This document shows, in pieces, positions 25,264-49,605 of a stretch of DNA of 64,000 nt. The stretch is from Candidatus Uhrbacteria bacterium (GTDB lineage Bacteria > Patescibacteriota > Patescibacteriia > UBA9934 > UBA10169). The stretch's first letter is position 1, and the number at the start of each line of letters is the position of its first letter. The DNA lies in the NCBI GenBank assembly GCA_016187485.1, contig JACPJO010000005.1, positions 155,519 to 219,518 of the forward strand, in the 5' to 3' direction. The translations under genes and the position numbers were made by a program. Under the pieces are notes generated by a model, which ran no database searches, was not told where the DNA came from, and saw only the letters and a program-made list of their open reading frames with translations.

Positions 25264-25277
25264 AATTCGTACGAATT
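25264..25277. promoter_or_regulatory. AATTCGTACGAATT perfect 14-bp palindrome (variant of the motif), 12 bp upstream of the P2 start
   Basis: Read directly; overlaps the P1 stop codon. Confidence 0.45.
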
Positions 25278-27018
25278 AGCCGACCTGTTCGAGATACGCA
25301 AGGTAGCACGCCGTGCAGTAAATCTTCCGTTTTGGAAACGCGATGTTTTTGTGTATCACCACTTCCTTTGAGCACTTTTGACATAGGCCCTGCTCGGCCA
25401 TAAAAGTATTCCCTAGTCGAGCGAGCGCACGGATGCGTGTCATGAAATGTCGCCGAGGAAATGGAAGTCTCATGTGCGTATAAAACGCCACATCTTCTTT
25501 TCGTACGGTAAAGGGACGTTCAAGCTCTGGATCCATAATAGGCCTTCCAGCAAACAACGCGCAGGCCTCCAGTCCATCCGGCAACAACTCCGGATCCATA
25601 GACTCACCATACACGGCCGATTGCGAGAGAGAGATGACCGCCCCGCGCTTCGCATCAAAAACAATTCCACCGAGACGAACAACCTCCTCGTCGGTAAGCG
25701 GTGCATGAAGCTCCCCACCCCACTGGATGCCCGACGGAGAAAAGTCTCCAGGGAAAAAGTTCCCGTACTCGTCCCGATCAAGCATCGCGCATTTCAATTC
25801 GTCGAGCTTGTTCCAATATTCTTCCTCAGCATAGGCCTTGTTGAGAATATGAAACTTCTTGTTCTTGAGTCCAACACATCCGAAGCAGTTTTCACAATCG
25901 GAACAATTGAGACAGTACTCGATGTTTTGACAGCGCATGCACGCCGTCGAGAACAAGACGCGACTCCCGTTGATAACACCAACCGCCATGTAGCTGTCCG
26001 ATGTCCCGTCAATTCCGCTCGTGTACGCATTCCCCTGGACGACGGAATGACAAAGCTGGCAGGCGTACATATCCGTCGCAAACGAAAGTCCGAAACCGTC
26101 GGTGCAACGCACGCACTTCATGAGATACTCTCCACTCGACGCCTCACAGCCGACATTGAAGTTTTCTGGCCATACCGCTTCCGTTCGCAACATCTCGAGA
26201 TAGCGTTGCATCCATGACTGAAAAACTTTCCAGGACGTGAGATCCACTTCTTTCATTTTTTGCTCATACGTCTCTTTCGAAAGTTGTTCATTTGCGAAGA
26301 CGTACTTCCGATTGCGCAAATTGCTCCCGAGAAAGCAGGACTCGCAATTGCGGGAATCAAAGAGGAAATCGCAAGACACGCATTCCTGACATTGCATCGC
26401 CACCCGACAGCGATACATTTTTGTAGAGCGGTTGAGCGAAAAGCTTTCTTGTGACGATGTCCCGATAAAGGTGTCCTCGCAATCTTCCAGCTCTTTGCAC
26501 ATGAACCCGTACGCGGAACGTCTGGTGTTTTTCACGCCGCCAAAAACCATAAACGAATCTTCAGCAGAAATAATCCCGACACCCATACTGTTCACAGGGG
26601 TACCAAAGGTGCGTGTCGCTTGAAATGGCACGGCGTGTAATACCTGGCGAAGTTGTGGAAAAAATGGTTGCGCGATATCAAGACCCCTCGCTCCGCGATC
26701 GCTCCAATCCTGTGCGTGCCACAGAGAGTCCTCAACGACCGGAATGGGATTGTCCGGATGGATATAGGAGACGATGAGTTTCTTGGTCACGGCATCGGTA
26801 TTCCACCAGATGGTAACACCGGAGTTGAAACCGAACAGGAGTTTCCGCCGAATCGTCGGCGAAATATCAGAAGGTGGGACCTGGAACTTACGCATCCAGA
26901 TAAGCTCTTCTTCCGTCATCATCCATCTCTCACCTGAAACCGGGCACACTCGCTCGCCGGGTTGTGCGGCGTCAAGGATCGCTTTGATCTGTACATCGTA
27001 GTTGGGGGTATGAGACAT
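25276..27018 (-). CDS. cysteine-rich paralog family protein P1
   Basis: Start trimmed to MSHTPNYDVQIKAILDAAQPGERVCP. CENCFGCVGLKNKKFHILNKAY. C-terminal CQKCSKEV...YCTACY. Confidence 0.7.
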   Translation of the reverse strand: MSHTPNYDVQIKAILDAAQPGERVCPVSGERWMMTEEELIWMRKFQVPPSDISPTIRRKLLFGFNSGVTIWWNTDAVTKKLIVSYIHPDNPIPVVEDSLWHAQDWSDRGARGLDIAQPFFPQLRQVLHAVPFQATRTFGTPVNSMGVGIISAEDSFMVFGGVKNTRRSAYGFMCKELEDCEDTFIGTSSQESFSLNRSTKMYRCRVAMQCQECVSCDFLFDSRNCESCFLGSNLRNRKYVFANEQLSKETYEQKMKEVDLTSWKVFQSWMQRYLEMLRTEAVWPENFNVGCEASSGEYLMKCVRCTDGFGLSFATDMYACQLCHSVVQGNAYTSGIDGTSDSYMAVGVINGSRVLFSTACMRCQNIEYCLNCSDCENCFGCVGLKNKKFHILNKAYAEEEYWNKLDELKCAMLDRDEYGNFFPGDFSPSGIQWGGELHAPLTDEEVVRLGGIVFDAKRGAVISLSQSAVYGESMDPELLPDGLEACALFAGRPIMDPELERPFTVRKEDVAFYTHMRLPFPRRHFMTRIRALARLGNTFMAEQGLCQKCSKEVVIHKNIAFPKRKIYCTACYLAYLEQVG

Positions 27019-27079
27019 AACGCCCACAGTCTATCTCATTTCCCCCAAAAACTAAAAACCCTGCGCCCCGCCGATCTCC

Positions 27080-27393: not shown

Positions 27394-28839
27394 CTACACA
27401 ATAATCTCTCCCATATCAATCGGCTTGGCTTCGGGTTCTTTTGCGACCGAGTCGCCGCCCTCCAATTCTTTTTCTACTTGCACGCGAGGCGTTGCGTACT
27501 TCTCGCGCGACTGTTTAACAATACGCTCGACAAAATTTCCATGCTTGGGCTTGTCCACGGTAAGCACATCGGCAGAAAACGGATCCCATCGGCGCCCGTC
27601 AATCGTCATTTTCACATAAATCTCCCGCTCAGAAAGATTAATCATGTCGTTCACCGAGAAAACTGGCTGCATTTCGTTGGACATAATCTCCGCATCCTCC
27701 GCGCTGATCTGAAATGACACGATAGAGGCGACGTTGCCAAACAAAGATGACCGCAGCGATGGCGAAAGTTGGGAGAGGTTTTGGTTGGCCACCGTCAAAC
27801 AAAAGCCGAATTTGCGCGCTTCGGCCAAAATATTTTCAAATGTCCTTGTGGCGATATTTTGAAACTCGTCTACATAGAGGTAGAACGGGGTACGATCTTT
27901 CTCCGGCAGACGGATGCGCTGCATGGACGCTTGATAGAGTTTTGTCACAAGTACCGCGCCAAAGAAAGCAGATTTCTCGTCTCCCACACGACCTTTCGAC
28001 AGATTCACGAGCAGAATCTTTTTGTTCTGCATGATCTCATACAAGTCGATCTTGCTTTTTTTCTGTCCAAAAATATTGCGGAGCAGCGGATCAGTAAGCA
28101 ACTGGCCGAATTTATTGAGAAGAGGCGACACCGCTTCCGCATCATACCGCTGCGACCACTCCGGAAACTCAATCGCCCAAAACCGTCGCACCACCGAATC
28201 TTTGATATGCTCAATTACCTTACCGCGAAATGGACCCGAGGAAAGCATGGAGACAATGCCGTTCAACGTTCCGTCGGGATAATCAATCATGGCCAGACAC
28301 GAAAAGCGCAGTAAGTGTTCAATGCGTGGAGACCAGTCGGAGGCAAATTGCTTTTTGAAAATCTCGATAATCGAGTCCGTCACCATATGCTTATCCTCGT
28401 CGGCAACGTTGGCAATCGGGTTAAACGCTACGGGAAAATCACGGTCGGCTGGGTCAATCAGCACCACATCATCAATACGATTCTCCGGAATGAACTCCAA
28501 CATGGAGTTGATCAAATCTCCATGCGGATCCACAACACCCACCGCGTGGCCAAAATGAATATCCGCTCGCATGAGAAGTTCCATGAGTTTTGTTTTCCCC
28601 ACGCCAGACTTCCCAATCACATACAAATGGCGACGACGATCGCGGCGCTTAATACCAAAAATGTACCGCTTCGCTGCATAGCCGGTGGAAAAGTTTGTTT
28701 TACCAAAAAGAGAAATCTCTTCCGGTGCGACGTCTTGCGGGGTCGGGAGAGTATCGGGTGGTTCATGACGCCGAGCAACAAACGTCTCCAGTTCTCCGTC
28801 GCCCGCCGTTGTCGGTGATTGAAAAAGTGGATCGGCCAT
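27394..28839 (-). CDS. FtsK/HerA-superfamily P-loop ATPase, TraD/VirD4- or DUF87-like (paralog 1)
   Basis: Walker A GKSGVGKT, DPHGD motif, Walker B FYLYVDEFQN followed by AEARKFG. 481 aa. Confidence 0.65.
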   Translation of the reverse strand: MADPLFQSPTTAGDGELETFVARRHEPPDTLPTPQDVAPEEISLFGKTNFSTGYAAKRYIFGIKRRDRRRHLYVIGKSGVGKTKLMELLMRADIHFGHAVGVVDPHGDLINSMLEFIPENRIDDVVLIDPADRDFPVAFNPIANVADEDKHMVTDSIIEIFKKQFASDWSPRIEHLLRFSCLAMIDYPDGTLNGIVSMLSSGPFRGKVIEHIKDSVVRRFWAIEFPEWSQRYDAEAVSPLLNKFGQLLTDPLLRNIFGQKKSKIDLYEIMQNKKILLVNLSKGRVGDEKSAFFGAVLVTKLYQASMQRIRLPEKDRTPFYLYVDEFQNIATRTFENILAEARKFGFCLTVANQNLSQLSPSLRSSLFGNVASIVSFQISAEDAEIMSNEMQPVFSVNDMINLSEREIYVKMTIDGRRWDPFSADVLTVDKPKHGNFVERIVKQSREKYATPRVQVEKELEGGDSVAKEPEAKPIDMGEIIV

Positions 28840-28842
28840 ACA

Positions 28843-30699
28843 TCACCACGGAAAAATACTCGGCTCTTTTGCCACTTGCAGGGGCTCCTCCTCTTCCCCA
28901 TCATCCCCACCGTCATCTTTCTGTGGAGCACTCCCCGCGGACGGTGGGGAATTTCCATGAGGCTTCTTGTGACGGCGGCGTTTACGCTTTCCTCCTTCAT
29001 CCGGACGAGAACCCACAGAGACGGTCGGTGCATTCGTCGGCGTCACAGGAGAAGTTGCCACAGAAACAGAGGCTGCAGGTGTCGGGGTCGTTATCCCTGT
29101 TGGACGAGGAGCGCTTAGCGCCGACAACGACACCTCTCCCACCGTCTCCGTCCTCACCACTTCAGCGTCTTTCATAACAGAGACCGGCGTTTCTCCAGGT
29201 CTGGACGGTTTTTTACCGGCTTTGCGTTCTGCCTTCACAATATCAATGCAATCTTCACAGTAAATCGGCCGCGAGCGATCCAGTTCAACCGGTAACTCCA
29301 TGTGTTTTTGGCATCGCGAACACGTATACTCATGCATCCACGACTTCTTCTTCGACACAGGCGGCGCAACTTCTGGAATTTCTGGAAGCGCCCCCTCTTC
29401 GATCACGGGTTTACTTTCACTCCACCGCAGAATCCGCTCTTCCACAAGTTCGCGCGGGACGGCATATTGCTGTCGGGAAGCCGCAATAACCTTCACCTCA
29501 TTCTTTGTGTGAATCTGGATTGGCGGAAGCGTTACGGCAGAGAACGGATCACCGGCAATTCCTTTCGAGAGAAGTTTCAAATAAATGTTTGCCTTGGGGA
29601 GATTTACAAGGTCGTCCTCGATAAATTTTGGCGCAAACTCCACGGCTAATTTTTCTGCATCGGCCGATCCTACACGGAACGAAATAAGCGTTCCGGCGTT
29701 TCCAAACACGGCCGCTTCGACCGTTTCATCCAGCTGCTCAATGTATTGGTGAGCCATGATAAGCGCGAGGCGGTATTTACGCGCTTCGGAGAGAATGTTC
29801 GCAAACGACTCCGTGGCAAAGTTTTGAAATTCGTCAATGTAGAGGTAGAAGTCCTCACGAGCTTCCTCCAAAATATCCACGCGCGCCATTGCGGCAAGCT
29901 GCATCTTTGTCACAAGAAGCCCCCCAAGCAGCCGGCTTGCGTCCTCCCCAATACGTCCCTTCGACAGGTTCACAATAAAGATGTGGTTTCCATCCATGAT
30001 GTGGCGCATGTCAATCGTGGACTTCTCTTGTGCCACGATGTTGCGCACAAGCGAGGTAGAAAGAAACTGGCCGACCTTGTTTTGAATCGGCGCAATTGCT
30101 TCCGTGCGAAACTTTGGATCCCACTGCTCAAATTCTGTCACCCAGAAAGCCTTCACCACCGGATCTCGAATGCCCGCCACAATTTTCCGGCGGAAGTCGC
30201 GGTCTACAAGAATACGGTTGATGCCAAGAAGGGTATTCCCGGGATTTTCCAGCAAACTCAAAATACAGTTATTCATGATGTGCTCCATGCGTGGACTCCA
30301 CACATCCGGCCAAATCTTTTTAAAGACGCCCATGAGACCCGAGGCAATCACGTGCTTGTGGCTATCGTCCACGGCTTCGAGTACGTTGAACCCAATGCAA
30401 TGATTGAGATCGGATGGATTGAAATACACGACGTCATTGATCCGATGCTCGGGAATGGCATCAATGATCTTCTCGGCAGAATCCCCGTGCGGATCAATAA
30501 ATCCGACGCCGTGGCCGTAGTAGATGTCGGCCAAGATCATGTTTTCAATCAGCGTCGTTTTTCCCACACCGGATTTTCCCACAATGTACATGTGCCGGCG
30601 GCGATCATCCGTGCGAATGCCAAACTTCCGCAAACGGTTGCGGAAGTTTGTTCGCGCGAAGAAAATTACATCTTGTTCGTGATCGTGAAAGTATTTCAT
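28843..30699 (-). CDS. FtsK/HerA-superfamily P-loop ATPase (paralog 2) with a C-terminal CxxC...CxxC zinc ribbon and a Pro/Thr/Lys-rich tail
   Basis: GKSGVGKTT, DPHGDS, FYLYIDEFQN, SEARKYRL; CSRCQKH...CEDC. The start may be 30726 (26-bp overlap) or the internal ATG at 30699. Confidence 0.65.
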   Translation of the reverse strand: MKYFHDHEQDVIFFARTNFRNRLRKFGIRTDDRRRHMYIVGKSGVGKTTLIENMILADIYYGHGVGFIDPHGDSAEKIIDAIPEHRINDVVYFNPSDLNHCIGFNVLEAVDDSHKHVIASGLMGVFKKIWPDVWSPRMEHIMNNCILSLLENPGNTLLGINRILVDRDFRRKIVAGIRDPVVKAFWVTEFEQWDPKFRTEAIAPIQNKVGQFLSTSLVRNIVAQEKSTIDMRHIMDGNHIFIVNLSKGRIGEDASRLLGGLLVTKMQLAAMARVDILEEAREDFYLYIDEFQNFATESFANILSEARKYRLALIMAHQYIEQLDETVEAAVFGNAGTLISFRVGSADAEKLAVEFAPKFIEDDLVNLPKANIYLKLLSKGIAGDPFSAVTLPPIQIHTKNEVKVIAASRQQYAVPRELVEERILRWSESKPVIEEGALPEIPEVAPPVSKKKSWMHEYTCSRCQKHMELPVELDRSRPIYCEDCIDIVKAERKAGKKPSRPGETPVSVMKDAEVVRTETVGEVSLSALSAPRPTGITTPTPAASVSVATSPVTPTNAPTVSVGSRPDEGGKRKRRRHKKPHGNSPPSAGSAPQKDDGGDDGEEEEPLQVAKEPSIFPW

Positions 30700-30700
30700 A

Positions 30701-32446
30701 CTAACGGACGTCGTCCATTGTATCACGAAGCCCTACATCTTCCGGCTCAACCCCTTGCTCAATAAGCACGCGGATTTCATCGGGAATACCTGCCGGTGAT
30801 CCTGTCTTCAAATGCGAAGGGGTGGGAGGACGTGCATCGTATGCGTTCGCGCGCGGGGCGATATTTTGCGGCGTCAGTGAGGAGGACGGCGCAGCATGCG
30901 CGGTCGGAGCTACTGGCCGCGGGGCAGAAAGGCCCTCTGCCGGTCTATCGGCATGAGCATCTCCTTCGATTGCCACTTCGTGCGACGGCGCCGCTTTAGC
31001 GTGGGATGTATGCACAACCTCGCCCATCCCATGCGCGGGCGGAATAGCCATAGGCATCTCGAATAAATCCGCCGGCGCCTCTTCCTTTTGTACTTCCCCG
31101 CCCGGCAGAATCATTTTGGGCGCGACCAACATTTCCTCTTCTTCATCGGCAAACGGCGTATCTGTAGGCGGCTCGGCACGCTTGGCGAGCGTCTTCTTGA
31201 TAAGCGGCACCTTTACGTTGATCGTCGGGAAGTGCCAGAGCGTCGCCAACTCCTCAGTGTTCAACACAAACGCCTCGGCGCCAATCTCGGTACTTCTCTC
31301 CACATATCCTTTCATGAGCTTGTTTTGGTAGTACGCGTACCACCACACTTGCCAGAAGTAGTCATCTTCCGGACTCCCATGCCCCGTAAAGGCGTTCAAA
31401 TCTTGGTGTGCGAGCTGCTTGAGGAATCCTTTCACGATATCTTTGCGTGTCACCTTCGTGAAGACTTCTTTGCGCGCTACATAGATCACGCGGATTTTTG
31501 TCTTGAGCCCTGGTTTGCCGATCTTGCGCACAACCGATTTACTGATTTCCCGCTCCTGCTCTGTAACTTTAAACGCCTTCCATACCTCTTCTTGGAATTT
31601 ATCTTTCCCGGCCTCGGCCTCACCTCCCAGAATGTCTCCAATTACGACGCCCGGTACCGATGCAATCGCGCCGCCGATGGCGCCCAACAAACCGCCGGAT
31701 TCTGCATGCTTGTTACTCACCCCATAGGTCTTTTTGATAAAGGCGTCCCCCTCTTCTTTCCATTCTTCGCCCGCATGCTCAGTAAGCACTTGAAACCATA
31801 ATTGCTCGCCGGGCTTCATCTGCGCCATCCCTTCAAAAAGTGTGACAAGCGGGTCCTTGAGGTCCTGTGTCAGCGAGTGCTCAAAATCTACATAGGTGCG
31901 CACAGACATGAAACTTGGTTTCGCAAGCACGTACTCTGCCCCCCATACGTCCCACTGCTCATGGGGAAAATGGTGCGGCACCTCCTTCGCGTAGTCATCG
32001 ACGAGAGCAATTTCCGCATCGGGGTATTGTGCATAAATAACCGCTTCATAGACATCGCGATACCGCTGCTCCGTCCAAATGTAAAATTGGATATAGCCGT
32101 TAATCGAGGCAATCTCAAAACTATGGCGCCAGGGCACCTTTCCCATGAGGTACGTCTCAAGCCACGTGGGAGAAGCTTTCAGGGCAACGGTAACACCAAA
32201 GATGTTTTCCACGGCACGGGGACTTTGCTCCGTGAGGCGTGGGACATCTATCGCAAGTAGGATATACGGCCGGTGGTGGCGCCAATAATGGCGCTGCATC
32301 TCAAGCCACATTTCAAAAATGCCGTAGAGGAAGACGACAAGAAACGGGATCCAGCCGAAATACAACAAGAGATCAATGATGATCTCGTCCACCGGCTGGT
32401 TCAGAAATTGCGACAGGGTAAACCCTCCAATTGTCGCAAGAAGCAT
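30701..32446 (-). CDS. large membrane-anchored hypothetical protein (N-terminal TM helices, long Pro/Ala-rich C-terminal tail)
   Basis: 581 aa; hydrophobic N-terminus. Operon-like juxtaposition with the two ATPases. Confidence 0.55.
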   Translation of the reverse strand: MLLATIGGFTLSQFLNQPVDEIIIDLLLYFGWIPFLVVFLYGIFEMWLEMQRHYWRHHRPYILLAIDVPRLTEQSPRAVENIFGVTVALKASPTWLETYLMGKVPWRHSFEIASINGYIQFYIWTEQRYRDVYEAVIYAQYPDAEIALVDDYAKEVPHHFPHEQWDVWGAEYVLAKPSFMSVRTYVDFEHSLTQDLKDPLVTLFEGMAQMKPGEQLWFQVLTEHAGEEWKEEGDAFIKKTYGVSNKHAESGGLLGAIGGAIASVPGVVIGDILGGEAEAGKDKFQEEVWKAFKVTEQEREISKSVVRKIGKPGLKTKIRVIYVARKEVFTKVTRKDIVKGFLKQLAHQDLNAFTGHGSPEDDYFWQVWWYAYYQNKLMKGYVERSTEIGAEAFVLNTEELATLWHFPTINVKVPLIKKTLAKRAEPPTDTPFADEEEEMLVAPKMILPGGEVQKEEAPADLFEMPMAIPPAHGMGEVVHTSHAKAAPSHEVAIEGDAHADRPAEGLSAPRPVAPTAHAAPSSSLTPQNIAPRANAYDARPPTPSHLKTGSPAGIPDEIRVLIEQGVEPEDVGLRDTMDDVR

Positions 32447-32461
32447 AGCGCCCCCATTATA

Positions 32462-33370
32462 TCACGAATGGGAGAGAGCGTGCTTTTTGTCCCACTCATG
32501 CCACGTGACAAGAAGAGGCGACGCAATGAAGATCGAAGAGTAGGCTCCCGCCGACATACCGATAAGAAGCGCCAGAGCAAACGAGCGTGTGGTCTCCCCG
32601 CCAAAAAGAAAGACGGCAAGAATCGCCAAAAGAGTTGTGAGAGTCGAATTGATAGAGCGAGCGTAGGTTTGCCGTAAACTTTTCGTCACAAGTCCGCTCA
32701 AATCTCGGCCGCCTTCACGGGCAAGATTTTCCCGCGTGCGGTCAAACACGACAATCGTGTCATTAATTGAGTACCCAAGAATCGTGAGAATAGCGGCGAC
32801 AAACGCCGTATCCACCTGAAAGGACTGCGAACGTCCCAACACGGCAAAGACTCCGAGTGGAATAAGAATGTCATGCAATCCTACAAGGACGGTCAGCACC
32901 GCATATTTCCATGAGGCGACCGGTTCGGAAACTTTCCGGAACATCCAGGTGATGTACACCACAATAAGGAGAACGGAAAGCACGAGACCAAAGAGCGACT
33001 TCCGCTTAAGTTCAGAGCCAATCACCGGGCCCACCGAATCAAACCTTCGCTCCTCAACAGTGCCGAATTTCTCTCGGAGTGCTCCAAGAAGCGCTTGGTG
33101 TTTTTCTTCCGATAGAACGGGCAGCCGCATAAGCGCTCCCTGCTCTTCTGTCTCTTGCACGACCGCTTCGGGGTATCCCGCTTCTTTCACCGCCTCGCGC
33201 ACGACGACCACCTCCGTCGCTGTCTCGAAGCGCACCTCCATCAAACTCCCGCCAGTGAAGTCAATCCCAAATGGCAGATGGAAAACAATGAGAAGCACGA
33301 TACTGGCTGCGGCAATAGTGCCAGAAACGGCATACCAAATTTTTCGTCCGGCAATAGGATGAAGGGTCAT
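32462..33370 (-). CDS. secF: protein translocase subunit SecF
   Basis: IDFTGGSLMEVRF, six TM helices, SINDTIVVFDR motif. Start trimmed to the ATG abutting the secD stop. Confidence 0.85.
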   Translation of the reverse strand: MTLHPIAGRKIWYAVSGTIAAASIVLLIVFHLPFGIDFTGGSLMEVRFETATEVVVVREAVKEAGYPEAVVQETEEQGALMRLPVLSEEKHQALLGALREKFGTVEERRFDSVGPVIGSELKRKSLFGLVLSVLLIVVYITWMFRKVSEPVASWKYAVLTVLVGLHDILIPLGVFAVLGRSQSFQVDTAFVAAILTILGYSINDTIVVFDRTRENLAREGGRDLSGLVTKSLRQTYARSINSTLTTLLAILAVFLFGGETTRSFALALLIGMSAGAYSSIFIASPLLVTWHEWDKKHALSHS

Positions 33371-35373
33371 ACGGAAGCTTTTTGAGATACGCCATACCAC
33401 CACGAACGCTTGGCGAACTTACTTACGACGAGAAGGAGAAGACGGCTTACCGTAATGGTGGTGAACATGGAGAGAAGAATACCGATTGAGAGCGTAACGG
33501 CGAAACCTTTAATAAAGCTTGTACTGAAGAGAAAGAGCACGGCCGCGGTGATGAGCGATGTGGCGTTTCCGTCACGGATGGATGTCCATGCGCGCTTGAA
33601 GCCTTCGATCATTGCCATATGCAGGTCACGCCCATCGCGGAGTTCTTCTTTAGTGCGCTCGAAGATGAGAACGTTTGCGTCTACAGCCATACCAAGCGAG
33701 AGGATGAAACCCGCGATCCCAGAAAGCGTCAATGTTACACCGAAGATTTTATACGCAGCAAGGTTGAGAAGCGCGTAAATAGTAAGCGCAATGATCGCAA
33801 TGACACCGGAGAGCCGATAGTACAAGACCATGAAGAGAGCGACGAGGAAAAAGCCGATAAGGCCCGCCTTGAGTGACCGGTCGAGCGAGTCGGCGCCGAG
33901 CGTGGGACCAACCGTGCGCTGCGAGAGAAGCTCGACGGGCACGGGAAGCGCGCCGGCGTTGAGACGCTGCGCCAATAGTTTAGCTTCTTCTACCGTAAAG
34001 GTTCCCGAAATAACGGCGCGGCCTCCATAGATCGCCTGCTGGACAACCGGCGCCGAGATCACCTCGCCGTCAAGGAAGATGGCAATTTGCTGCTTGATGC
34101 GTCGCGCCGTGATCTCCCCAAACAACTTGTCGCCCTCCGCATCAAATTGAAGCGCAACATAGGGTTGGCCGGTGGATTGATCGAACTCAACGCCGGCGCG
34201 CTCAAGCTGCTTGCCTGAAAGCGGCGTGTTCACCCATGCCCCCGCATCGGGCGCAACATCCCACGGCTGCGTGAGTTTGGAGACGTTGCGTGTCATGGTG
34301 TACGTTTTCACCGGCTTTTCTGCGCGTTTCAAAAAGACGTGATAGCCATACTCTGTTTCGACGGCGCTCGATACGCTTCCCACAGGAAGAGAGCGCACTG
34401 CCAACTCCGCTGCCGGCGGCAAAAATCCCGGTTGCGTCCACGAAAGTTCTCCGCCGTTTTCTTTGGCAGAGGGATCCGTGGAAAATTCACGGGCACGGTC
34501 GGCAAAATTCTCTGCCATAATGCCGTCTGTTGCCTTTTGCACTTGGATAGACGCCTCAATCGCCGGAATGGGATTAGGACAATTCGTTTTCCCTTCAAAA
34601 CAAATAAGAATGTGCGAGAGATCCCATTCGGTGTCTTCCCCGACAGAATCCAATCGGAGAACATTGATGCCCTCGGCGTTTTCCTCGGATGTATACCCAC
34701 CCACACGAATTTTGTTTGTCACAATGGCAGACACGAGCGGCCCGTAGAGCGGGTGCGCGGGCGCAATGTTTGTGAGTGTTTCCGTTTGCGTGTCCCCAAA
34801 TCCCTCTCGACGAGCTTTCGCAAGAAGATCCTTTGCCGCCTTGCGCTCCTCGGCCTGCTTTGTTTCCAGTTCTGTTTTCTGTTCAGGGGTCAGCCCTTCT
34901 TGATTCGCCCCAGGTTCTTTAAATTCCAAAATGGGTGTCTCGCCAATTTCACGAATCGCTTCGGATACATCAAGCACTCCTGCTAAATCGACAACCACGC
35001 GATAGCCCCCGCCGCTTGTGATCGTCTGCACAACCGGTTCAGAAACCCCGAAAGCATTCACACGGCGCTCAATAACATCACGCACGCCCTCAAGCGCTTC
35101 GTCTCGCTCGGATGAAGGAATATCACTCATGTCAGCACCGTACTCCAAGTGCGTGCCGCCCTTTAGATCAAGGCCTAAACGATAAGACTCGGTAGAAAGC
35201 CCCGGAAGCCCAATAGCTTGAAAGGCTTGCGGCACGGCAAACCCAAGCGCTAAAAGAACAAGAACCACAAGGACACTGATTTTCGCCCAGAGCCAAGAGC
35301 GGCCGCTGCCGGAACTTCTGGATGCTTGAGAGCGGTGCTTTGCATCAAGGTACTTACGATAGCTATAACCCAT
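33367..35373 (-). CDS. secD: protein translocase subunit SecD with an embedded parvulin-type PPIase domain
   Basis: SecD TM bundle LSGIAGFILSLGMAVDANVLIFER. The periplasmic region contains SHILI...FSTDPSAKENGGELSW...VETEYGYHVF, matching PpiC/parvulin. Confidence 0.8.
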   Translation of the reverse strand: MGYSYRKYLDAKHRSQASRSSGSGRSWLWAKISVLVVLVLLALGFAVPQAFQAIGLPGLSTESYRLGLDLKGGTHLEYGADMSDIPSSERDEALEGVRDVIERRVNAFGVSEPVVQTITSGGGYRVVVDLAGVLDVSEAIREIGETPILEFKEPGANQEGLTPEQKTELETKQAEERKAAKDLLAKARREGFGDTQTETLTNIAPAHPLYGPLVSAIVTNKIRVGGYTSEENAEGINVLRLDSVGEDTEWDLSHILICFEGKTNCPNPIPAIEASIQVQKATDGIMAENFADRAREFSTDPSAKENGGELSWTQPGFLPPAAELAVRSLPVGSVSSAVETEYGYHVFLKRAEKPVKTYTMTRNVSKLTQPWDVAPDAGAWVNTPLSGKQLERAGVEFDQSTGQPYVALQFDAEGDKLFGEITARRIKQQIAIFLDGEVISAPVVQQAIYGGRAVISGTFTVEEAKLLAQRLNAGALPVPVELLSQRTVGPTLGADSLDRSLKAGLIGFFLVALFMVLYYRLSGVIAIIALTIYALLNLAAYKIFGVTLTLSGIAGFILSLGMAVDANVLIFERTKEELRDGRDLHMAMIEGFKRAWTSIRDGNATSLITAAVLFLFSTSFIKGFAVTLSIGILLSMFTTITVSRLLLLVVSKFAKRSWWYGVSQKASV

Positions 35374-35417
35374 AATTGGGGAGAAGTGTAGCGGAGGGAG
35401 AAAAGGAGCGCAAGCGA

Positions 35418-35446
35418 TTGACAAATTCCCCTTTTTTGTGCAGAAT
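35418..35446 (+). promoter_or_regulatory. sigma70-like promoter: TTGACA, 17-bp spacer, CAGAAT
   Basis: Hexamers read directly, about 45 bp upstream of the GGDEF gene's ATG. RBS AAAGGAAG. Confidence 0.45.
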
Positions 35447-35489
35447 GGGATGTCCATACTGGACACCTCACGCCAAGAAAGGAAGCGAC

Positions 35490-36167
35490 ATGGGGAACAG
35501 CGACCCTTCCCAGACAGAGGAGCTCGAACGACTCCGCAAACAGGTGCAAGCGCTCGAGGCTGCGATCGCAGCCAAAGATCGCGAGATCGGGACCAAAGAC
35601 GGGATCATCAGCCAATTCGCCCGTCGCGTCGTGAACCTGCGCTCACAGATCCGTGAGAGCGAGGAGACGTCGCACACCGACGGCCTCACCGGACTCCTCC
35701 TCAAGACCGAGCTGGAACGCGCCCTCCCCGGCATCGTACGCCGCGCCAAGAACAGCAGCGAGCCGTTGAGCATGATCTTCGTGGACCTGAACGACTTCCG
35801 CGAGGTCAACACGGCGCACGGTCACATGGGAGGCGACGCGGTTTTGCGAGAGGCCGCGCGCCGTCTCCGGCGCGTGCTCCGCCTCACCGACCTGGCAGGA
35901 CGTGTGGGCGGCGAAGAGTTCGCCGTCATCCTGCCGGGGACGCCCAAGAAGATGGCGGAGCGTGTCGCGACGCGCATCTACGCCGCCATCGCCAAGGATC
36001 CCTACCGCATCCCCGATGATGGCGAGGTCATCATGAGCGCCAGCGTGGGCTGGGCATGCGTCGCGGACACCGGCTACAGCCACGAGGAACTCTACAAGGC
36101 CGCCGACCAGGCCATGTACCGCGGAAAAGCAAAGAAGGGCTCAGGCGAGCCCACCTTGTCCGACTGA
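35490..36167 (+). CDS. GGDEF-domain diguanylate cyclase with N-terminal coiled coil (GC-rich)
   Basis: GGEEF active-site motif, RVGGEEFAVIL. N-terminal LERLRKQVQALEAAIAAK coiled-coil. GC3-biased. Confidence 0.75.
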   Translation: MGNSDPSQTEELERLRKQVQALEAAIAAKDREIGTKDGIISQFARRVVNLRSQIRESEETSHTDGLTGLLLKTELERALPGIVRRAKNSSEPLSMIFVDLNDFREVNTAHGHMGGDAVLREAARRLRRVLRLTDLAGRVGGEEFAVILPGTPKKMAERVATRIYAAIAKDPYRIPDDGEVIMSASVGWACVADTGYSHEELYKAADQAMYRGKAKKGSGEPTLSD

Positions 36168-36192: not shown

Positions 36193-36220
36193 CACCCCTC
36201 CGGGTGCGTTTCTGCTTTTA
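36193..36220 (+). terminator. intrinsic-terminator-like hairpin GCACCCctccGGGTGC plus GTTTCTGCTTTT
   Basis: Read directly after the GGDEF stop. A member of the conserved 3' module family. Confidence 0.55.
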
Positions 36221-37489
36221 GAGGCGTGTGACGCGTGCATCGTCAATAAAGAGGCGCGTGCTCTTCGGTACGTTCCCAAAAAAGAGTGTGACATCCTCCG
36301 CTGTTGGCTGCGTCACGTTTCCGTAAAGACTCCGCGGGCCTTGACGAACATCAAGGTACACGCACTTCCATTCCGAACCGACAGGCGTTGAATAGGACTG
36401 CGTGATGGCCGAGTATGACTGCGTGCCACGCGTTTCTTTTGCGATGGTCACCGGCACGGAAGAACCGCCGTTGATGAACTTCATGCGCATGGAGACACGG
36501 TACCATTCTCCTTCCGAGAACAAATTCGTTACGTCATATCCCACGGCCTCGTCATAAAGGTACGGCGCTGTCCGCTCGCGGCCATTGTCTTGACCATAAC
36601 TCGCGTTGGAGAGTCCAAGTGACTGAAAACCGTCGTAGCTTTGCGTCGAGGTAAGTGTGTTGGCAACCGATGTGCCAGACGAATAATCATGCACGCTGGA
36701 TGTCCAGCTCGAGATAAGGGCACCAAAACGGAAGCGCGCGTCTATACCCACACCCGGCTCAAATGCGGTGCGCAAAACAAGTTCACCGTTCAACGGAGCA
36801 CAGGTATCGCCGGAAGGATTCGGACGAGGCGCAGGAGCGGAGGTCACCGTTGAGAGAGAAGCCGGAATATCCGAAAGGCGCGAGCGGTACCACTCCACCA
36901 CGGTCAGAGCGTCGGCGGGACGGTCAACAACGTAGAATCCCGGGCGATAAAACCAGGCCTCAAGGTTGCCCTTCACTGACCCACGGCGCTCGGCTTGCTT
37001 CAAGAAAAGGCGCGCCGTATCAGTCCCGCTCGGAAGAGAAAAAACTCCGTAACTGATGGCCCACACGTTTTCCGTGCCGGCATCGTGACGCATTTCCTGT
37101 CCTTGCATGTACGTGCGGATGCGCGTGCCGTCCATTAGGTATCCGTAGAGATAGGGAAGGCCCGTAATATCCATGGCATTCGCGTTTCCACGGTTGTCTA
37201 TACGTTGCGCTTTTGTGTACGCAATGAAAACCGCGTAGTTCCCGTCATTGTCGGAAAGAGACACGTCACGCGAGAGGAACATTTTTTGGTTCCCGCTCTC
37301 ACGCAAGATGACGCGACCATCGGAAAGGACACTTGGTCCGCCGGAGACCTCCCATTGGCCGACCGAACCGGCAAAGTTGGGACGGCTCGCAACAGATTCC
37401 ACCGAAATAGCCAGGGCAGGAATGGCAGGGGCGAGCAGGCTTGTGCTTGCAACAGCTATCGAGGCAACACGCACGAAAAAAGCTTTCAT
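36218..37489 (-). CDS. secreted hypothetical protein (signal peptide)
   Basis: N-terminus MKAFFVRVASIAVASTSLLAPAIPALA; 423 aa, beta-rich composition. Confidence 0.5.
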   Translation of the reverse strand: MKAFFVRVASIAVASTSLLAPAIPALAISVESVASRPNFAGSVGQWEVSGGPSVLSDGRVILRESGNQKMFLSRDVSLSDNDGNYAVFIAYTKAQRIDNRGNANAMDITGLPYLYGYLMDGTRIRTYMQGQEMRHDAGTENVWAISYGVFSLPSGTDTARLFLKQAERRGSVKGNLEAWFYRPGFYVVDRPADALTVVEWYRSRLSDIPASLSTVTSAPAPRPNPSGDTCAPLNGELVLRTAFEPGVGIDARFRFGALISSWTSSVHDYSSGTSVANTLTSTQSYDGFQSLGLSNASYGQDNGRERTAPYLYDEAVGYDVTNLFSEGEWYRVSMRMKFINGGSSVPVTIAKETRGTQSYSAITQSYSTPVGSEWKCVYLDVRQGPRSLYGNVTQPTAEDVTLFFGNVPKSTRLFIDDARVTRL

Positions 37490-37740: not shown

Positions 37741-40500
37741 TCACGCTCCGTGACACTTCTTATACTTTTTCCCGCTCCCGCATGGGCAGGGATCATTGCG
37801 ACCGACTTTCGCAACAGACACGGCAGGTTGTGCAGAGGAAATGACATCACTGGTTTTCGCGGGAGCAGAGAGGTGAATACCGCGCCGCTCAAAAACCGAC
37901 TTCGCCAACTCTTCTGCCTCGCGTGTCGCGGCCACGTGTTGAGCAAACTTGAAAAAATTGTTAGCCACTTCCATCGATACAGCCAGCAAAAGACGATTGA
38001 ACAGTCCAAACGCCTCGCGCCGATACTCAATAAGCGGATCGCGCTGGCCGTAGCCGCGCAAGTTCACGCTTTGGCGGAGTGCCGTCATCACATCGAGGTG
38101 ATCAATCCACAACCGGTCAATGCTACGCAAAATTACTGCGCGTTCCAAATCCCGCAAATCCTTGCGGTCAGCAAACCGCCCCTCCAGCTCGTCGTACGCT
38201 CGCCGTACCACTGCCATAAGCTTCTCGGAAATCTCTGTGCGCGCTTTGGCGGTGCCCGCCTTTGAGACGCTGGTTTCCTTCAACAGGGGGGAGATTTCTT
38301 CCTGCTCAGCAACCGAAAGCGGCAACATCGCGGAAAGTGTCTCAAGGATCTCTTTGCGATTCGTATCGCCCTTCGCCGGCAGTGCTTCTTGAAATTGTGC
38401 GGGCACATGCACCTCTTCGCCTGTGTGAAACATCACCACTTCCTCGAGGGCCTCATCAAAGTGACCCAAGATAAGCTCGCGCAGGGCTTGCGGCTCTCCC
38501 CCATCATACGCCTCTAGCACGGCGCGACGATTTTTATACACAACTTCACGATGGCGATTAAGCACGTCGTCATAGGAGAGCAGATGTTTGCGCGCATCGT
38601 AATTGTTGCCCTCCACACGCTCCTGCGCCTTTTCAAGCGAGCGCGATACCATCTTATTTTCAATCGGCATGTCGTCGGGGATGCCCATGCGATCCATCAA
38701 GCGCTTCATGCGATCGCTGCCGAAAATGCGCATGAGGTCATCCTCCATCGAGACGTAAAATTGCGTCGCGCCCGGATCCCCCTGACGTCCCGACCGCCCG
38801 CGGAGCTGATTATCAATGCGCCGCGCTTCGTGCCGCTCGGTGCCGATGACCGCCAACCCGCCGAGTTCACGCACCGCTCTCGCCTCCTCGGGATCGGATG
38901 GATTTCCGCCAAGCACAATGTCCACACCGCGTCCCGCCATGTTCGTCGCAACCGTCACCGCACCGCGCCGACCAGCCTGCGCAATAATTGCCCCCTCTCG
39001 CTCGTGATTTTTTGCATTCAGTATTTCAAACGGAAGCCCCTCGGCCGTCATCATCTGCCCGAACAGTTCATTCTTTTCAATAGAAGCCGTGCCCACCAAA
39101 ACAGGCTGGCCTTGTTCATGCAAACGCTTGATTTCTGCAATCACAGCGCGGAATTTTCCAAGCTCGGATTTATATACACGGTCTGGCAGGTCCGTACGCG
39201 AAGACGGTCTGTTCGGCGGGATGATGATGACATCCATACCGTAGGTTTTGTGGAACTCCTCCGCGTCTGTGGCACCCGTTCCTGTCATGCCCGCGAGTTT
39301 CTCGTAGAGCCGAAAATAATTTTGAAACGTGATCGTTGCGAGCGTTTGGCTCTCCTGTTTGATCGTTACGCCTTCTTTCGCCTCAATAGCTTGGTGCAAA
39401 CCCTCCGAATATCGCCGTCCCTCCATCAACCGGCCGGTGAACTCATCAACAATAATGATTTCCCCCTCGCGCACCACGTAATCCTTATCACGGCGATAGA
39501 GCGCGTGCGCCCGGAGCGCCTCCTCCATGTGGTGCACCATCTCGGCTCCCTGCGCCGTGTACAAATTTTCCACTCCGAGCGCTTGCTCCACGCGACTGAT
39601 GCCTTCATCCGTAAGCGTCGCCGCACGCAATTTCTCGTCCACATTATAGTGCGTGCCCACCGTAAGCTCGGCAGCGATATGTGCGCACGTCATGTACAGA
39701 GAACTCGGCGTCTCGGATGGCGCCGAAATAATAAGCGGGGTGCGCGCTTCGTCAATCAAAATGGAGTCCACCTCATCTACAATCGAATAAAAAAGCGGTC
39801 GCTGAACGAGCTGTTCCGTCCGGATCACCATGTTGTCACGCAAGTAATCAAACCCAAACTCATTGTTCGTGCCGTACGTGACGTCCGCAGCGTACGCCTC
39901 TTTGCGCGAGACGGGACGCAAATAATCCATGTCCACGCGGAACGATCCCGTCGCATCACGTTTCGCATCTGACGCCTCTTCATTCTCCACATGGCGATAC
40001 GCAGGATCATAGACAAAACTCGCGTCGTGCTGAATGCATCCCACACTCATACCAAGCGCATAAAACACTTGTCCCATCCACACGGCATCACGCTTGGCAA
40101 GATAATCGTTGACCGTCACGAGATGCGCGCCCTTTTTTGCAAGGGCATTCACATAAAGCGGCGCAGTGGCCGTGAGCGTCTTTCCCTCGCCCGTGCGCAT
40201 TTCTGCAATGTTGCCGTCGTGCAACGCCATGCCACCCGCCATCTGCACGTCGTAATGCCGCTGGCCAAGCGTGCGGCGCGCCGCCTCGCGCACCACCGCA
40301 AACGCCAGAGGCAAGAGCGCATCAAGCGTCTCGCCCGTAGCAAGCCGCGCCCGAAACTTCTCCGTTTGTTCTTTCAGCTCGTCTGCCGAGAGAGTCGTGA
40401 CAGACGGCTCTAACGCGTTGATGTCTGCCACGCGTTTGAGATACGTCTGCTGTTTTTTTACGCTTGGATCCGGAAATAACCGATTAAGCCATTGGGCCAT
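37741..40500 (-). CDS. secA: preprotein translocase ATPase SecA
   Basis: [24 protein letters not shown]-like motor motifs, C-terminal zinc finger [14 protein letters not shown]. Start trimmed to MAQWLNRLF. Confidence 0.9.
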
Positions 40501-40548
40501 AGTGGACACAAGGATAGCCGAAACCGCCCAAGAAATCAATGCGCTGAG

Positions 40549-48090: not shown

Positions 48091-48472
48091 GAAAGATAGG
48101 TACCAGAAACCCCAACACAACCGCAAGATCTACCGCTATCGAGAACAGCTCGGTAAATTCTGTTTGCCATGGGATACCATAGAGAAATGGATTGAGAAGA
48201 GCGGATGCGAGCGCAAACAACGCTCCCCACGCTAACGCCATCTCCCCGCCGTGCCGCGCAGACGGCGTTGGGTGGCCGCGAAAGAAAAGCGCGGAGAAAA
48301 GTGCGCTCAATACGGGGATGCTCGCCATCATGGCATACCCTGGCCACAGACTTCCAGGGGTGTACAACACGGCATACGAGACGACAAACACAGACGCCGC
48401 ATGTACGAGGAGAAGGAATGCAACCCAGAAGATGACAAACCGGCTGGCAAGACGCGCGAGAGGATGTATCAT
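47996..48472 (-). CDS. hypothetical membrane protein
   Basis: Four hydrophobic helices; coding-like. Convergent overlap with the folD 3' end, so low confidence. Confidence 0.3.
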   Translation of the reverse strand: MIHPLARLASRFVIFWVAFLLLVHAASVFVVSYAVLYTPGSLWPGYAMMASIPVLSALFSALFFRGHPTPSARHGGEMALAWGALFALASALLNPFLYGIPWQTEFTELFSIAVDLAVVLGFLVPIFLKRRRAEDVPLLEHSESAWQPSSAPRPPEQA

Positions 48473-49605
48473 ACAACATGCGAAAGAAGTTCCACGACGG
48501 CTCCCGCAAAAAAGAGGAGGCCGATGAGCCACAAGAGTGGGAGTGGAATAGTAAAGCATTTTATCCGGCGGCACACGGTGCGTTGAAGCCGGCGGTAAAT
48601 GACAAGAATAAGGCAGGCAAGAAGCGCCGAGAAGACCGTGCCGGTAAAACTAATAACGGTAATAAACTCGCGTACACCAAAAAGAAAGAGCAGTGCGGGA
48701 ACTCCAAGAGCAAGTACAACGGCCGATAGACGACCAAATCCAAGATCACGACGACACGTATCTTTCAACTGCTCTCCAATCATCATGAAAATAGACCATA
48801 GCGTGAGAAGGCCGAGCACTGATCCCACCGCTGCCATGTCGGGTCCAATCACGCGCGCAAAGCCAAGAAGCACGTTGGGAGTCGTGGTTGAACCTGTCAC
48901 ACCCACCATGAGAAATGTGAAAAGAAGGTAGAGGAGAAAAATAATTCCCGATCCGTACAACACGGCGCGAGGCAAGCGATATTCATACCTCTCACCCAAG
49001 ATCGCATGCATCTCGGGCATGACACCAAGACTAGAAGTAGCAAACAGGATAATGCCGTAGGGAACGAAAAAATGCTCAAGGTTCACCGCAGTAATGAGAG
49101 CGGGATCAAACGCGGGGAGGCCAGAAAGCATGAGTACGAGAAACAGTGTGAGAAGAACAGCACCGATGAGAAGCTCGAAAGACGCGGCGCGGCGCAACGG
49201 AAGAACGACCAGCAAGAGGCCAACAAGAAAGAACATCGAGGGTCCCGCAAGCGGCGGGAGCGCAGGAAAAAGCGTGCGCAAAAATTCGCCACCTAAAATA
49301 AGATACGAGAGCAAAATCCCCCACTGCCCGCCAAAAAAAATGAGCATGGCAATAGCGCGCGCGCCCGGGCCGAGGTAGTGCCCTGCGAGTCCCACCAGTC
49401 GCGACTGCCCTGGCGTTTGTATGGTGATCTCCGCCAAAAGAAGTTGGAGAAGAAGGAGAAAAAATCCAAGTACGACAAGGAAGAACGCGCCCGCCACCCA
49501 CCCCGATTGTGCAAACGCATACGGAAGCCCGAACACCCCCGCCCCAAGCGTCGAGCCAACAAACACTGCGGTTGCTTGCAGGGAACGTTTCCGCGCCTCC
49601 GTCAT
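48469..49605 (-). CDS. amino-acid permease-like membrane transporter (aromatic amino acid/AAAP-type)
   Basis: About 11 TM helices; FVGSTLGAGVFGLPYAFAQSGW N-terminal motif. Confidence 0.6.
   Translation of the reverse strand: MTEARKRSLQATAVFVGSTLGAGVFGLPYAFAQSGWVAGAFFLVVLGFFLLLLQLLLAEITIQTPGQSRLVGLAGHYLGPGARAIAMLIFFGGQWGILLSYLILGGEFLRTLFPALPPLAGPSMFFLVGLLLVVLPLRRAASFELLIGAVLLTLFLVLMLSGLPAFDPALITAVNLEHFFVPYGIILFATSSLGVMPEMHAILGERYEYRLPRAVLYGSGIIFLLYLLFTFLMVGVTGSTTTPNVLLGFARVIGPDMAAVGSVLGLLTLWSIFMMIGEQLKDTCRRDLGFGRLSAVVLALGVPALLFLFGVREFITVISFTGTVFSALLACLILVIYRRLQRTVCRRIKCFTIPLPLLWLIGLLFFAGAVVELLSHVV

What the first reader, a model, noticed from the sequence alone, without database searches (positions are those of the whole stretch)
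33367..35373. SecD carries a complete parvulin (PpiC-type) peptidyl-prolyl isomerase domain in its periplasmic region
Between TM1 and the TM bundle, SecD contains SHILI...(about 30 aa)...FSTDPSAKENGGELSWTQPGFLPPAAELAVRSLPVGSVSSAVETEYGYHVF. This matches the parvulin signature (HIL...S.D..S...GG.LG.F..G.....F..A...L..G..S.PV.T.FGYHI). Fusing a foldase to the translocon accessory subunit would couple translocation to prolyl isomerisation. That is the role of the PpiD/PrsA-type chaperones that associate with the Sec translocon. It would be a compact solution for a reduced genome.
Basis: partly seen in the sequence, partly recalled or inferred. Interest (0 to 1): 0.5.

Follow-up and report, generated by a model that had tools for sequence, protein, structure and literature searches.

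The report
SecD with two built-in parvulin domains
In this candidate-phyla-radiation bacterium, the SecD subunit of the protein-export machinery carries a pair of parvulin-type (prolyl-isomerase fold) domains on its mobile outer "head", so a folding helper that is a separate protein in other bacteria is built into the export motor here.

Summary

Residues 156-246 are a degenerate parvulin with no catalytic histidines and no first strand of its own. The whole module of about 225 aa sits between the P1 base and the P1 head.

The architecture is conserved. It is present in all 119 closest homologues and in all 80 species genomes inspected, out of at least 465 hits (Uhr-, Magasanik-, Falkowbacteria and other Patescibacteria). 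Both histidines are 81/81 conserved, and a family-specific C-x6-C pair is near-invariant. I found no paper describing it.

The function is inferred: a translocon-tethered foldase or chaperone. This matches reported or modelled contacts of the SecD P1 head with PpiD and SurA, and Mpn444-SecD crosslinks. Whether it replaces a standalone PrsA/PpiD could not be tested. This window's own copy is atypical, with F322A in the proline pocket and an eroded first module.

The parts
33367..35373 (-). secD coding sequence (668 aa, ATG 35373, TGA 33367-33369)
   Evidence: ORF. TIGR01129 secD scores 391.4 bits (cut-off 244.4) and TIGR00916 scores 235 bits (cut-off 148.6). Identical to an NCBI SecD of a Candidatus Uhrbacteria bacterium. 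The AF2 model has pLDDT 91.1 and its best Foldseek hits are SecDF 5xan, 5yhf and 3aqp.
35236..35304 (-). TM1 (residues 24-46), which places everything up to residue about 480 outside the cytoplasmic membrane
   Evidence: Helix 24-46 in the AF2 model. Topology is by homology to T. thermophilus SecDF.
34915..35088 (-). P1 base, N-terminal part (Pfam SecD_1st, residues 96-153), ending in the strand PILEFK that leads up to the head
   Evidence: PF21760 scores 51.8 bits. Query 63-168 aligns with T. thermophilus SecDF 32-132.
34636..34908 (-). parvA: degenerate parvulin-type module (residues 156-246), with a long helix, two short strands, one helix and a final strand. It has no catalytic His and no N-terminal strand of its own, and it is shortened in this genome.
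   Evidence: Translation. The family HMM for this segment scores 66 bits on the window protein. The same segment in 5 of 5 homologues passes Pfam Rotamase (22.1-39 bits, cut-off 21.7), while the window's own copy gives no Pfam hit. hhalign of parvA against parvB profiles gives probability 96.7%, E 4e-10. pLDDT is 92-98.
34318..34635 (-). parvB: complete parvulin domain (residues 247-352) with H254, D300, T340 and H345.
34579..34602 (-). Invariant cysteine pair C258...C265 (H-I-L-x-C-x6-C) at the end of the first strand of parvB; probably a disulfide (inferred)
   Evidence: C258 and C265 are 119/119 and 80/81. The motif is found in 20 of the best 150 cluster representatives, all matching the SecD-insert profile as one stretch, and in none of the multi-parvulin proteins in that list. 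A few divergent SecD fusions lack it.
34225..34317 (-). Closing strand and linker (residues 353-383). The last strand of parvB runs on, pairs back onto the last strand of parvA, and then leads into the P1 head.
   Evidence: DSSP gives two 23-residue strands at 235-257 and 343-365 in both models. Covariation pairs 251-350, 249-353, 237-362 and 242-361 lie on one antidiagonal (i+j 599-603), and helix 161-177 covaries with 367-370.
33940..34224 (-). P1 head subdomain (residues 384-478)
   Evidence: PF22599 scores 108.6 bits over profile positions 20-114 of 114. Query 385-647 aligns with T. thermophilus SecDF 160-422.
33424..33936 (-). SecD transmembrane bundle (residues 480-650), including D565, the equivalent of T. 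thermophilus D340
   Evidence: PF02355. D565 is invariant in 119 homologues.
32462..33370 (-). secF, translationally coupled to secD (ATGA overlap at 33367-33370)
   Evidence: TIGR00966 SecF scores 270 bits (cut-off 160). The sequence 'cgtATGAcc' was read. secF follows secD in every related locus with enough downstream sequence to show it.

Best explanation
This is a functional SecD whose extracytoplasmic P1 domain has acquired a rigid two-parvulin module of about 225 residues. The module is inserted where the P1 base hands over to the mobile P1 head. The second module (parvB) keeps the parvulin active-site residues and most likely acts as a prolyl isomerase and/or binding site for unfolded chains leaving SecYEG. 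The first module (parvA) has lost those residues and most likely serves as a scaffold or passive peptide-binding surface, as the inactive first parvulin domain of SurA does. Because the module hangs on the P1 head, it is held at the translocon exit and should move with the proton-driven head. This would make it a covalent version of the non-covalent SecD contacts of PpiD, SurA or Mpn444 described in other bacteria. Shown here: the gene, the domain identities, the insertion site, the predicted fold, residue conservation and clade-wide distribution. Inferred: catalysis, substrates, the disulfide, and any coupling to head movement.
Against: No activity data exist. A parvulin fold with a good-looking site can still be inactive, as with PpiD and SurA domain 1. 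In this window's own protein the pocket position that is Phe in 78/81 and 109/119 relatives is Ala (A322), G311 is Ser, and parvA is truncated, so this copy may be a weaker or purely binding variant. The orientation of the module relative to SecYEG is unknown: pTM of the full model is only 0.59, and coordinates could not be inspected. One relative (P0162) has only the degenerate module, so the catalytic one is dispensable at least there, if that sequence is real.
Confidence: 0.6

Rival explanations
1. Non-catalytic chaperone or substrate-capture extension: both parvulin modules only enlarge the polypeptide-binding surface of the P1 head (holdase or anti-backsliding clamp), without prolyl isomerisation.
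Against: Both catalytic histidines are 81/81 conserved, and the Asp/Glu and Thr positions are nearly so, across lineages only 30-40% identical in the insert. That is more constraint than a generic binding surface needs. The closest sequence relatives are the active SurA domain 2 and PrsA.
Confidence: 0.25
2. Structural or docking role unrelated to substrate folding: the module is a spacer, or a handle that binds another envelope component (cell wall, S-layer, partner protein) or restrains P1 head movement.
For: The rigid, high-confidence two-domain body has an invariant Cys pair typical of stabilised extracellular modules. The P1 region tolerates large lineage-specific insertions in other SecD proteins: E. 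coli-type SecD aligns only from residue 436 on.
Against: It does not explain retention of the parvulin active-site residues. No partner is suggested by conserved neighbours, since only secF is constant.
Confidence: 0.1
3. Artefact: an assembly chimera or gene-calling fusion of a separate parvulin gene with secD.
For: None found.
Against: A single uninterrupted ORF. The same in-frame architecture occurs in 119 independent homologues and 80 independent genome assemblies. The insert lies inside the P1 domain, not at a gene end. The model of the whole chain is confident.
Confidence: 0.01

Closest known systems
PpiD (with YfgM) at the E. coli/Vibrio Sec translocon
   Same: A membrane-anchored, extracytoplasmic protein with a parvulin domain that sits at the SecYEG exit. 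It contacts the SecD P1 head (crosslink to SecD Asp-359) and cooperates with SecDF in late translocation (PMC7793623, PMC9643414).
   Different: PpiD is a separate protein with its own TM anchor and a SurA-like N/C chaperone domain. Its single parvulin domain is catalytically inactive (my own knowledge). Here there is no such chaperone domain (no SurA_N-type Pfam hit), there are two parvulin modules, and they are part of the SecD chain.
SurA
   Same: Two tandem parvulin domains, the first inactive and the second active. parvB's best PDB sequence match is SurA domain 2 (E 6e-13). The SurA parvulin domains are modelled on the SecDF P1 head (PMC9987972).
PrsA foldase lipoprotein of Firmicutes
   Same: An extracytoplasmic, membrane-tethered parvulin foldase for Sec-exported proteins in monoderm bacteria. 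Strong sequence and fold matches.
   Different: PrsA is a dimeric lipoprotein with an N/C chaperone domain embracing one parvulin. It is tethered by lipid, not by fusion to a translocon subunit.
Mycoplasma pneumoniae Mpn444/Mpn436
   Same: A minimal-genome bacterium in which essential surface proteins with an active parvulin domain crosslink to SecD and are proposed to fold chains emerging from SecYEG (bioRxiv 10.1101/2024.09.05.611430).
   Different: These are separate, very large trimeric lipoproteins with propeller and chaperone-like domains, and the association with SecD is non-covalent.
Canonical SecDF (Thermus thermophilus 3AQP/5YHF, Deinococcus 5XAN)
   Same: The P1 base, P1 head, TM bundle and proton-pathway Asp are the same, and the whole model matches these structures.
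   Different: Canonical SecD has about 28 residues where this protein has about 217. The 397-position TIGR01129 model spans 582 residues here.

Membership tests
SecD (protein translocase subunit, RND-type) | Passes the curated equivalog model for SecD | tested here: met
   TIGR01129 scores 391.4 bits against cut-off 244.4, and TIGR00916 scores 235.2 against 148.6.
SecD (protein translocase subunit, RND-type) | N-terminal TM helix, large P1 domain with base and head, then a five-helix C-terminal bundle | tested here: met
   Pfam SecD_1st, SecDF_P1_head and SecD_SecF_C. AF2 model with pLDDT 91.1 and the expected helices. Foldseek E 1e-24 to SecDF 5xan.
SecD (protein translocase subunit, RND-type) | Conserved TM4 aspartate of the proton pathway (T. 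thermophilus D340) | tested here: met
   D565 aligns with D340 and is invariant in 119 homologues.
SecD (protein translocase subunit, RND-type) | Partner secF adjacent | tested here: met
   secF is at 32462-33370 with an ATGA overlap. It follows secD in every related locus with enough downstream sequence to show it.
SecD (protein translocase subunit, RND-type) | PMF-dependent stimulation of protein export | not testable with these tools
   Needs genetics or biochemistry.
Parvulin (PpiC-type PPIase) - parvB, residues 247-352 | Passes Pfam Rotamase family thresholds | tested here: met
   Rotamase_3 scores 51.6 bits against 22.5, and Rotamase 50.0 against 21.7.
Parvulin (PpiC-type PPIase) - parvB, residues 247-352 | Parvulin fold (four-stranded sheet with flanking helices) | tested here: met
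Parvulin (PpiC-type PPIase) - parvB, residues 247-352 | Active-site residues: two His on adjacent strands, Cys/Asp, Thr/Ser (Pin1 H59, C113, T152/S154, H157) | tested here: met
   H254, D300, T340 and H345 are present and conserved. The mapping to Pin1 numbering is from my own knowledge of the Pin1 sequence. The pocket Phe (Pin1 F134) is Ala in this copy only.
Parvulin (PpiC-type PPIase) - parvB, residues 247-352 | Prolyl cis/trans isomerase activity | not testable with these tools
   Needs an enzyme assay.
Parvulin (PpiC-type PPIase) - parvA, residues 156-246 | Sequence or profile membership | tested here: inconclusive
   The window's own segment gives no Pfam hit. The homologous segment of 5 of 5 relatives passes Rotamase (22.1-39 bits against 21.7). 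hhalign against parvB gives probability 96.7%.
Parvulin (PpiC-type PPIase) - parvA, residues 156-246 | Active-site histidines | tested here: not met
   There is no N-terminal His-bearing strand. The position of the second His is Asn in the window and variable in the family. This is a degenerate, non-catalytic module.
SurA/PrsA/PpiD-type chaperones | N/C 'chaperone' domain (SurA_N-like) into which the parvulin domain is inserted | tested here: not met
   No SurA_N-type family among the Pfam hits at E up to 0.1. The flanks of the parvulin modules are SecD P1 base and head. The protein resembles these chaperones in function only and is not a member.
SurA/PrsA/PpiD-type chaperones | Own membrane anchor (PpiD TM helix, PrsA lipobox) or soluble periplasmic protein | tested here: not met
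   The module is internal to the SecD polypeptide.

The most novel reading that the evidence does not exclude
The two-parvulin body rides on the proton-driven P1 head, so head swinging cyclically presents and withdraws a prolyl isomerase or chaperone at the SecYEG exit. That would be an energy-coupled foldase in a compartment that has no ATP. As a 'Rosetta stone' fusion, it would also imply that docking of parvulin chaperones (PpiD, SurA, PrsA, Mpn444) on the SecD P1 head is a general, ancient feature of bacterial secretion.
Probability: 0.15. Interest if true: 0.75.

Novelty: new variant of a known kind. Interest (0 to 1): 0.5.

Why it matters
SecDF and the parvulin chaperones are each well known. 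How emerging secretory chains are handed from the translocon to folding helpers is still argued from crosslinks, low-resolution EM and AlphaFold models. A conserved natural fusion places parvulin domains directly at the base of the SecD P1 head in hundreds of species. This is independent evolutionary evidence that the two activities belong together. It also offers a compact, single-chain system for structural and biochemical tests. It adds a lineage marker and a piece of envelope biology for a large, uncultured part of the Patescibacteria. The family-specific C-x6-C pair and the nested two-domain topology are new structural variations on the parvulin theme.

Tried and rejected
(1) I tried to test whether a standalone prsA/ppiD is absent. 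Only the 64-kb window and about 0.85 Mb of flanks from 80 related loci were available. HMMs built from the family found parvulin ORFs only inside secD, but this sample is too small to conclude anything.

(2) The exact-protein contig look-up found no record, so the rest of the source genome could not be reached.

(3) The best non-SecD hits of the insert profile, proteins of 360-415 aa with three parvulin domains and of about 660 aa with several, were checked as possible standalone relatives in the same clade. Where they are named, they come from Planctomycetota, Muiribacterium or 'SurA' of unknown origin, not Patescibacteria.

(4) The supplements of the CPR survey that reports PrsA in CPR held no prsA or secD entries as text.

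(5) A Foldseek search of AFDB50, which would have given UniProt organisms for the fold, was not available.

(6) The chimera or artefact reading was rejected on conservation.

(7) The strong AT skew at 48-50 kb is just a Leu/Phe-rich membrane transporter gene on the minus strand.

(8) Model coordinates are not exposed, so the Cys-Cys distance and the orientation of the module on the head could not be measured. I substituted DSSP strings and covariation.
Full report
**1. What is at the coordinates**

The finding's interval is one minus-strand ORF. From ATG 35373 to TGA 33367-33369 it encodes 668 aa. An in-frame GTG at 35466 would add 31 residues. The 668-aa form is identical to a deposited protein named 'protein translocase subunit SecD [Candidatus Uhrbacteria bacterium]' on a 303-kb contig. 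NCBI places that taxon in the Parcubacteria and Patescibacteria groups.

It is a real SecD on four grounds:
- TIGR01129 scores 391 bits (cut-off 244) and TIGR00916 scores 235 bits (cut-off 149).
- Pfam finds SecD_1st at 96-153, SecDF_P1_head at 384-478 and SecD_SecF_C at 480-650.
- phmmer aligns residues 63-168 and 385-647 with Thermus thermophilus SecDF 32-132 and 160-422. This includes the proton-pathway Asp (query D565 = Tt D340), which is invariant in 119 homologues.
- secF follows, with its ATG overlapping the secD stop as ATGA at 33367-33370.

Neighbouring genes:
- A divergent GGDEF gene at 35376-36167 (+).
- secA at 37741-40539 (-).
- murB and a Mur ligase beyond secA.
- Downstream of secF, an unassigned 581-aa ORF and two VirD4/TrwB-like coupling ATPases.

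**2. The parvulin domain is real and complete**

- Pfam Rotamase_3 (250-346, 51.6 bits) and Rotamase (287-348, 50.0 bits) score about twice their gathering thresholds, at E about 1e-13.
- Residues 232-377, searched alone against PDB sequences, hit SurA parvulin domain 2 (E 6e-13), several PrsA proteins (8e-11 to 3e-9), PEB4, PpiC and Pin1-type enzymes.
- An AlphaFold2 model of residues 155-400 has pLDDT 90.4 and pTM 0.77.

The quoted motifs are present. By comparison with the Pin1 and Par10 sequences, from my own knowledge, they map as follows:

| Residue here | Pin1 equivalent |
|---|---|
| H254 | H59 |
| D300 | C113 (Asp is the usual bacterial residue) |
| T340 | T152 |
| H345 | H157 |
| L310 / L318 / A322 | L122 / M130 / F134 (proline pocket) |

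**3.

The roughly 95 residues between the P1 base and the parvulin domain (156-246) are themselves a degenerate parvulin.
- In the family alignment they read '...VL.RA..GEDF..LV.E.S......G.......Y....AI......G.V.P.V.ET.EGL.VVKY', which is the parvulin pattern without the histidines.
- The corresponding segment of 5 of 5 relatives passes Pfam Rotamase (22.1-39 bits, cut-off 21.7). The window's own shortened segment gives no Pfam hit.
- HMMs I built for the two segments cross-hit each other in most of 80 related genes.
- hhalign of the two profiles gives probability 96.7%, E 4e-10 over 69 columns. 'EGLnIvK' aligns opposite 'FGYHLIy', so the second catalytic His is lost.
- The Pfam alignments begin at profile positions 11-23, so the first, His-bearing strand is missing from parvA.

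**4. How the two modules are joined (partly inferred)**

Both AF2 models show two unusually long 23-residue strands, at 235-257 and 343-365. Each spans both modules: the last strand of parvA runs straight into the first strand of parvB, and the last strand of parvB runs on past the domain.

A simple MI-APC covariation analysis on 199 sequences supports this.
- Pairs 251-350, 249-353, 237-362, 251-351 and 242-361 are among the top 40. All lie on one antidiagonal (i+j = 599-603).
- The mean score along that antidiagonal in the parvA part (235-249 against 350-365) peaks at 0.04-0.06, against about 0 elsewhere.
- The strongest pair overall is 161-370, and 172/176/177 pair with 367/368. The N-terminal helix of the insert therefore touches its C-terminal end, as expected for an inserted module.

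**5. Where the module sits in SecD**

About 217 residues (168-385) replace T. thermophilus 132-160. The insert begins right after the strand PILEFK that ends Pfam's 'P1 N-terminal' model. It ends at profile position 20 of the 'P1 head' model. It therefore sits at the base-to-head junction, on the N-terminal edge of the mobile head. The full-length model (pLDDT 91.1; 92-98 across the insert; pTM 0.59) resembles the I-form structures slightly better than the others: TM 0.45 for 5xan, against 0.40 for 3aqp and 0.35 for 5yhf.

**6. Distribution**

- All 120 best database hits (50-64% identity) carry PF00639/PF13616 together with the SecD families. Those that are named are Candidatus Uhrbacteria or 'Patescibacteria group'.
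At least 465 loci encode a relative.
- The best 80 include Uhr-, Magasanik- and Falkowbacteria, 'Paceibacter' and unnamed Parcu-/Patescibacteria.
- Many MAGs among them are titled 'uncultured Gammaproteobacteria'. Two of these are complete chromosomes of 0.89 and 1.0 Mb, a size I take as CPR-like rather than gammaproteobacterial (inference).
- In all 78 loci whose ORF is complete at the 5' end, my segment HMMs find SecD_1st, parvA, parvB, P1 head and, except in one 3'-truncated ORF (L052), the TM bundle. Two ORFs truncated at the contig edge lack only the N-terminal base. secF follows wherever the contig extends far enough.
- In the 50%-identity representative library, 143 proteins reach E 1e-30 against the insert profile. 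About 25-30 of the best 150 are SecD-sized or fragmentary SecD fusions. The rest are multi-parvulin proteins of other phyla.
- Variants exist. Some fusions have two well-preserved parvulins (P0134, P0181, P0129, P0208). One SecD (P0162, 580 aa) retains only the degenerate module followed by the linker.
- Canonical SecD proteins lack the insert.

**7. Conservation**

| Position | 119 close homologues | 81 species-level sequences |
|---|---|---|
| H254 | 110 | 81 |
| H345 | 117 | 81 |
| D300 | 102 D | 43 D + 33 E |
| T340 | 110 | 76 T + 5 S |
| G343 | 119 | 81 |
| L310 | 114 | 80 |
| F322 | 109 | 78 |

Two cysteines, C258 and C265 (H-I-L-x-C-x6-C), are 119/119 and 80/81. The motif is absent from the multi-parvulin proteins in the representative list and from a few divergent fusions. 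In an extracytoplasmic domain an invariant pair most likely forms a disulfide (inference).

The window's own protein departs from its family in three ways. It has Ala at 322, where its nearest relatives have Leu. It has Ser at 311 in place of Gly. Its parvA is shortened.

**8. Mechanism**

By established knowledge, as summarised in PMC7793623, SecDF is a cation-driven motor. Its P1 head binds the chain emerging from SecYEG and pulls it by swinging between conformations.

Three independent lines link parvulin chaperones to SecD, two of them specifically to the P1 head:
- PpiD crosslinks to SecD Asp-359 in the head and cooperates with SecDF (PMC7793623).
- SurA binds the holotranslocon, and AlphaFold puts both of its parvulin domains on the SecDF P1 head in the I form (PMC9987972).
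- In M. pneumoniae the active parvulin lipoprotein Mpn444 crosslinks to SecD (bioRxiv 10.1101/2024.09.05.611430).

The fusion here makes that contact permanent. I therefore favour, at about 0.6, a translocon-tethered foldase/chaperone. In it, parvB isomerises or binds Xaa-Pro segments of emerging chains, and parvA is a scaffold or passive binder.

The main rival, at about 0.25, is a purely non-catalytic holdase or capture surface. That reading is more plausible for this particular copy because of A322. A structural or docking role (about 0.1) does not explain the conserved active site. An artefact is excluded.

**9. Comparison and membership**

The protein is a member of SecD, and parvB is a member of the parvulin family by sequence, fold and active-site residues. 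Activity is untested. parvA is a degenerate relative that fails the active-site criterion. The protein is not a member of the SurA/PrsA/PpiD chaperones, because it lacks their N/C chaperone domain and their own anchor. It may nevertheless work like them.

**10. Novelty**

The domain hits are visible in precomputed annotations, and NCBI names the protein simply SecD. Four full-text searches found no paper that describes SecD with parvulin domains. The library is incomplete, so a description elsewhere cannot be excluded. I rate the finding a new variant of a known kind.

The claim that the fusion compensates for loss of a standalone PrsA/PpiD remains open. I could not reach whole genomes, and a CPR survey reports PrsA annotations in all CPR classes (PMC9166423).

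Noticed in passing
window 34579-34602 (-), SecD residues C258 and C265: A C-x6-C pair right after the catalytic His strand is invariant in the SecD-embedded parvulin (119/119 and 80/81). It is absent from the standalone multi-parvulin proteins examined. It is probably a disulfide specific to this family.
   Followed up: partly
window 34408-34410 (-), SecD residue A322: This genome has Ala where 78/81 and 109/119 relatives have the proline-pocket Phe (Pin1 F134 position), and its nearest relatives have Leu. G311 is also Ser. This subclade's parvulin may have altered or reduced activity.
   Followed up: partly
protein P0162 (580 aa, from the representative library): A SecD relative that keeps only the degenerate parvA-type module, followed directly by the linker and P1 head. 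It is either a natural deletion between the two homologous modules or a state before parvB was acquired.
   Followed up: partly
window 27394-28839 (-) and 28843-30726 (-): Two adjacent VirD4/TrwB-like type IV secretion coupling ATPases (TrwB_AAD_bind, TraG-D_C). The second has a treble-clef zinc finger. They lie just downstream of secF and of a 581-aa ORF with no Pfam family.
   Followed up: no
window 35376-36167 (+): A GGDEF diguanylate cyclase gene (125 bits) is transcribed divergently from secD. The listed TTG ORF start abuts the secD ATG, so the true start is probably further in.
   Followed up: no
window 30701-32446 (-), 36218-37489 (-), 25276-27027 (-): Three large ORFs (581, 423 and 583 aa) flank the sec genes with no Pfam family. 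The 423-aa one has an N-terminal signal-like hydrophobic stretch and sits between secA and secD.
   Followed up: no
loci L007, L008, L013, L020, L036 and many others: Many genome records carrying this Patescibacteria-type SecD are titled 'uncultured Gammaproteobacteria bacterium' (one is 'Hyphomicrobiales'). They include complete chromosomes of 0.89 and 1.0 Mb. The titles look like mislabels or placeholders.
   Followed up: no
window 48469-49605 (-): The AT-skew spike (0.325) at 48-50 kb is a Leu/Phe-rich multi-pass membrane transporter-like gene on the minus strand, which is ordinary.
   Followed up: yes
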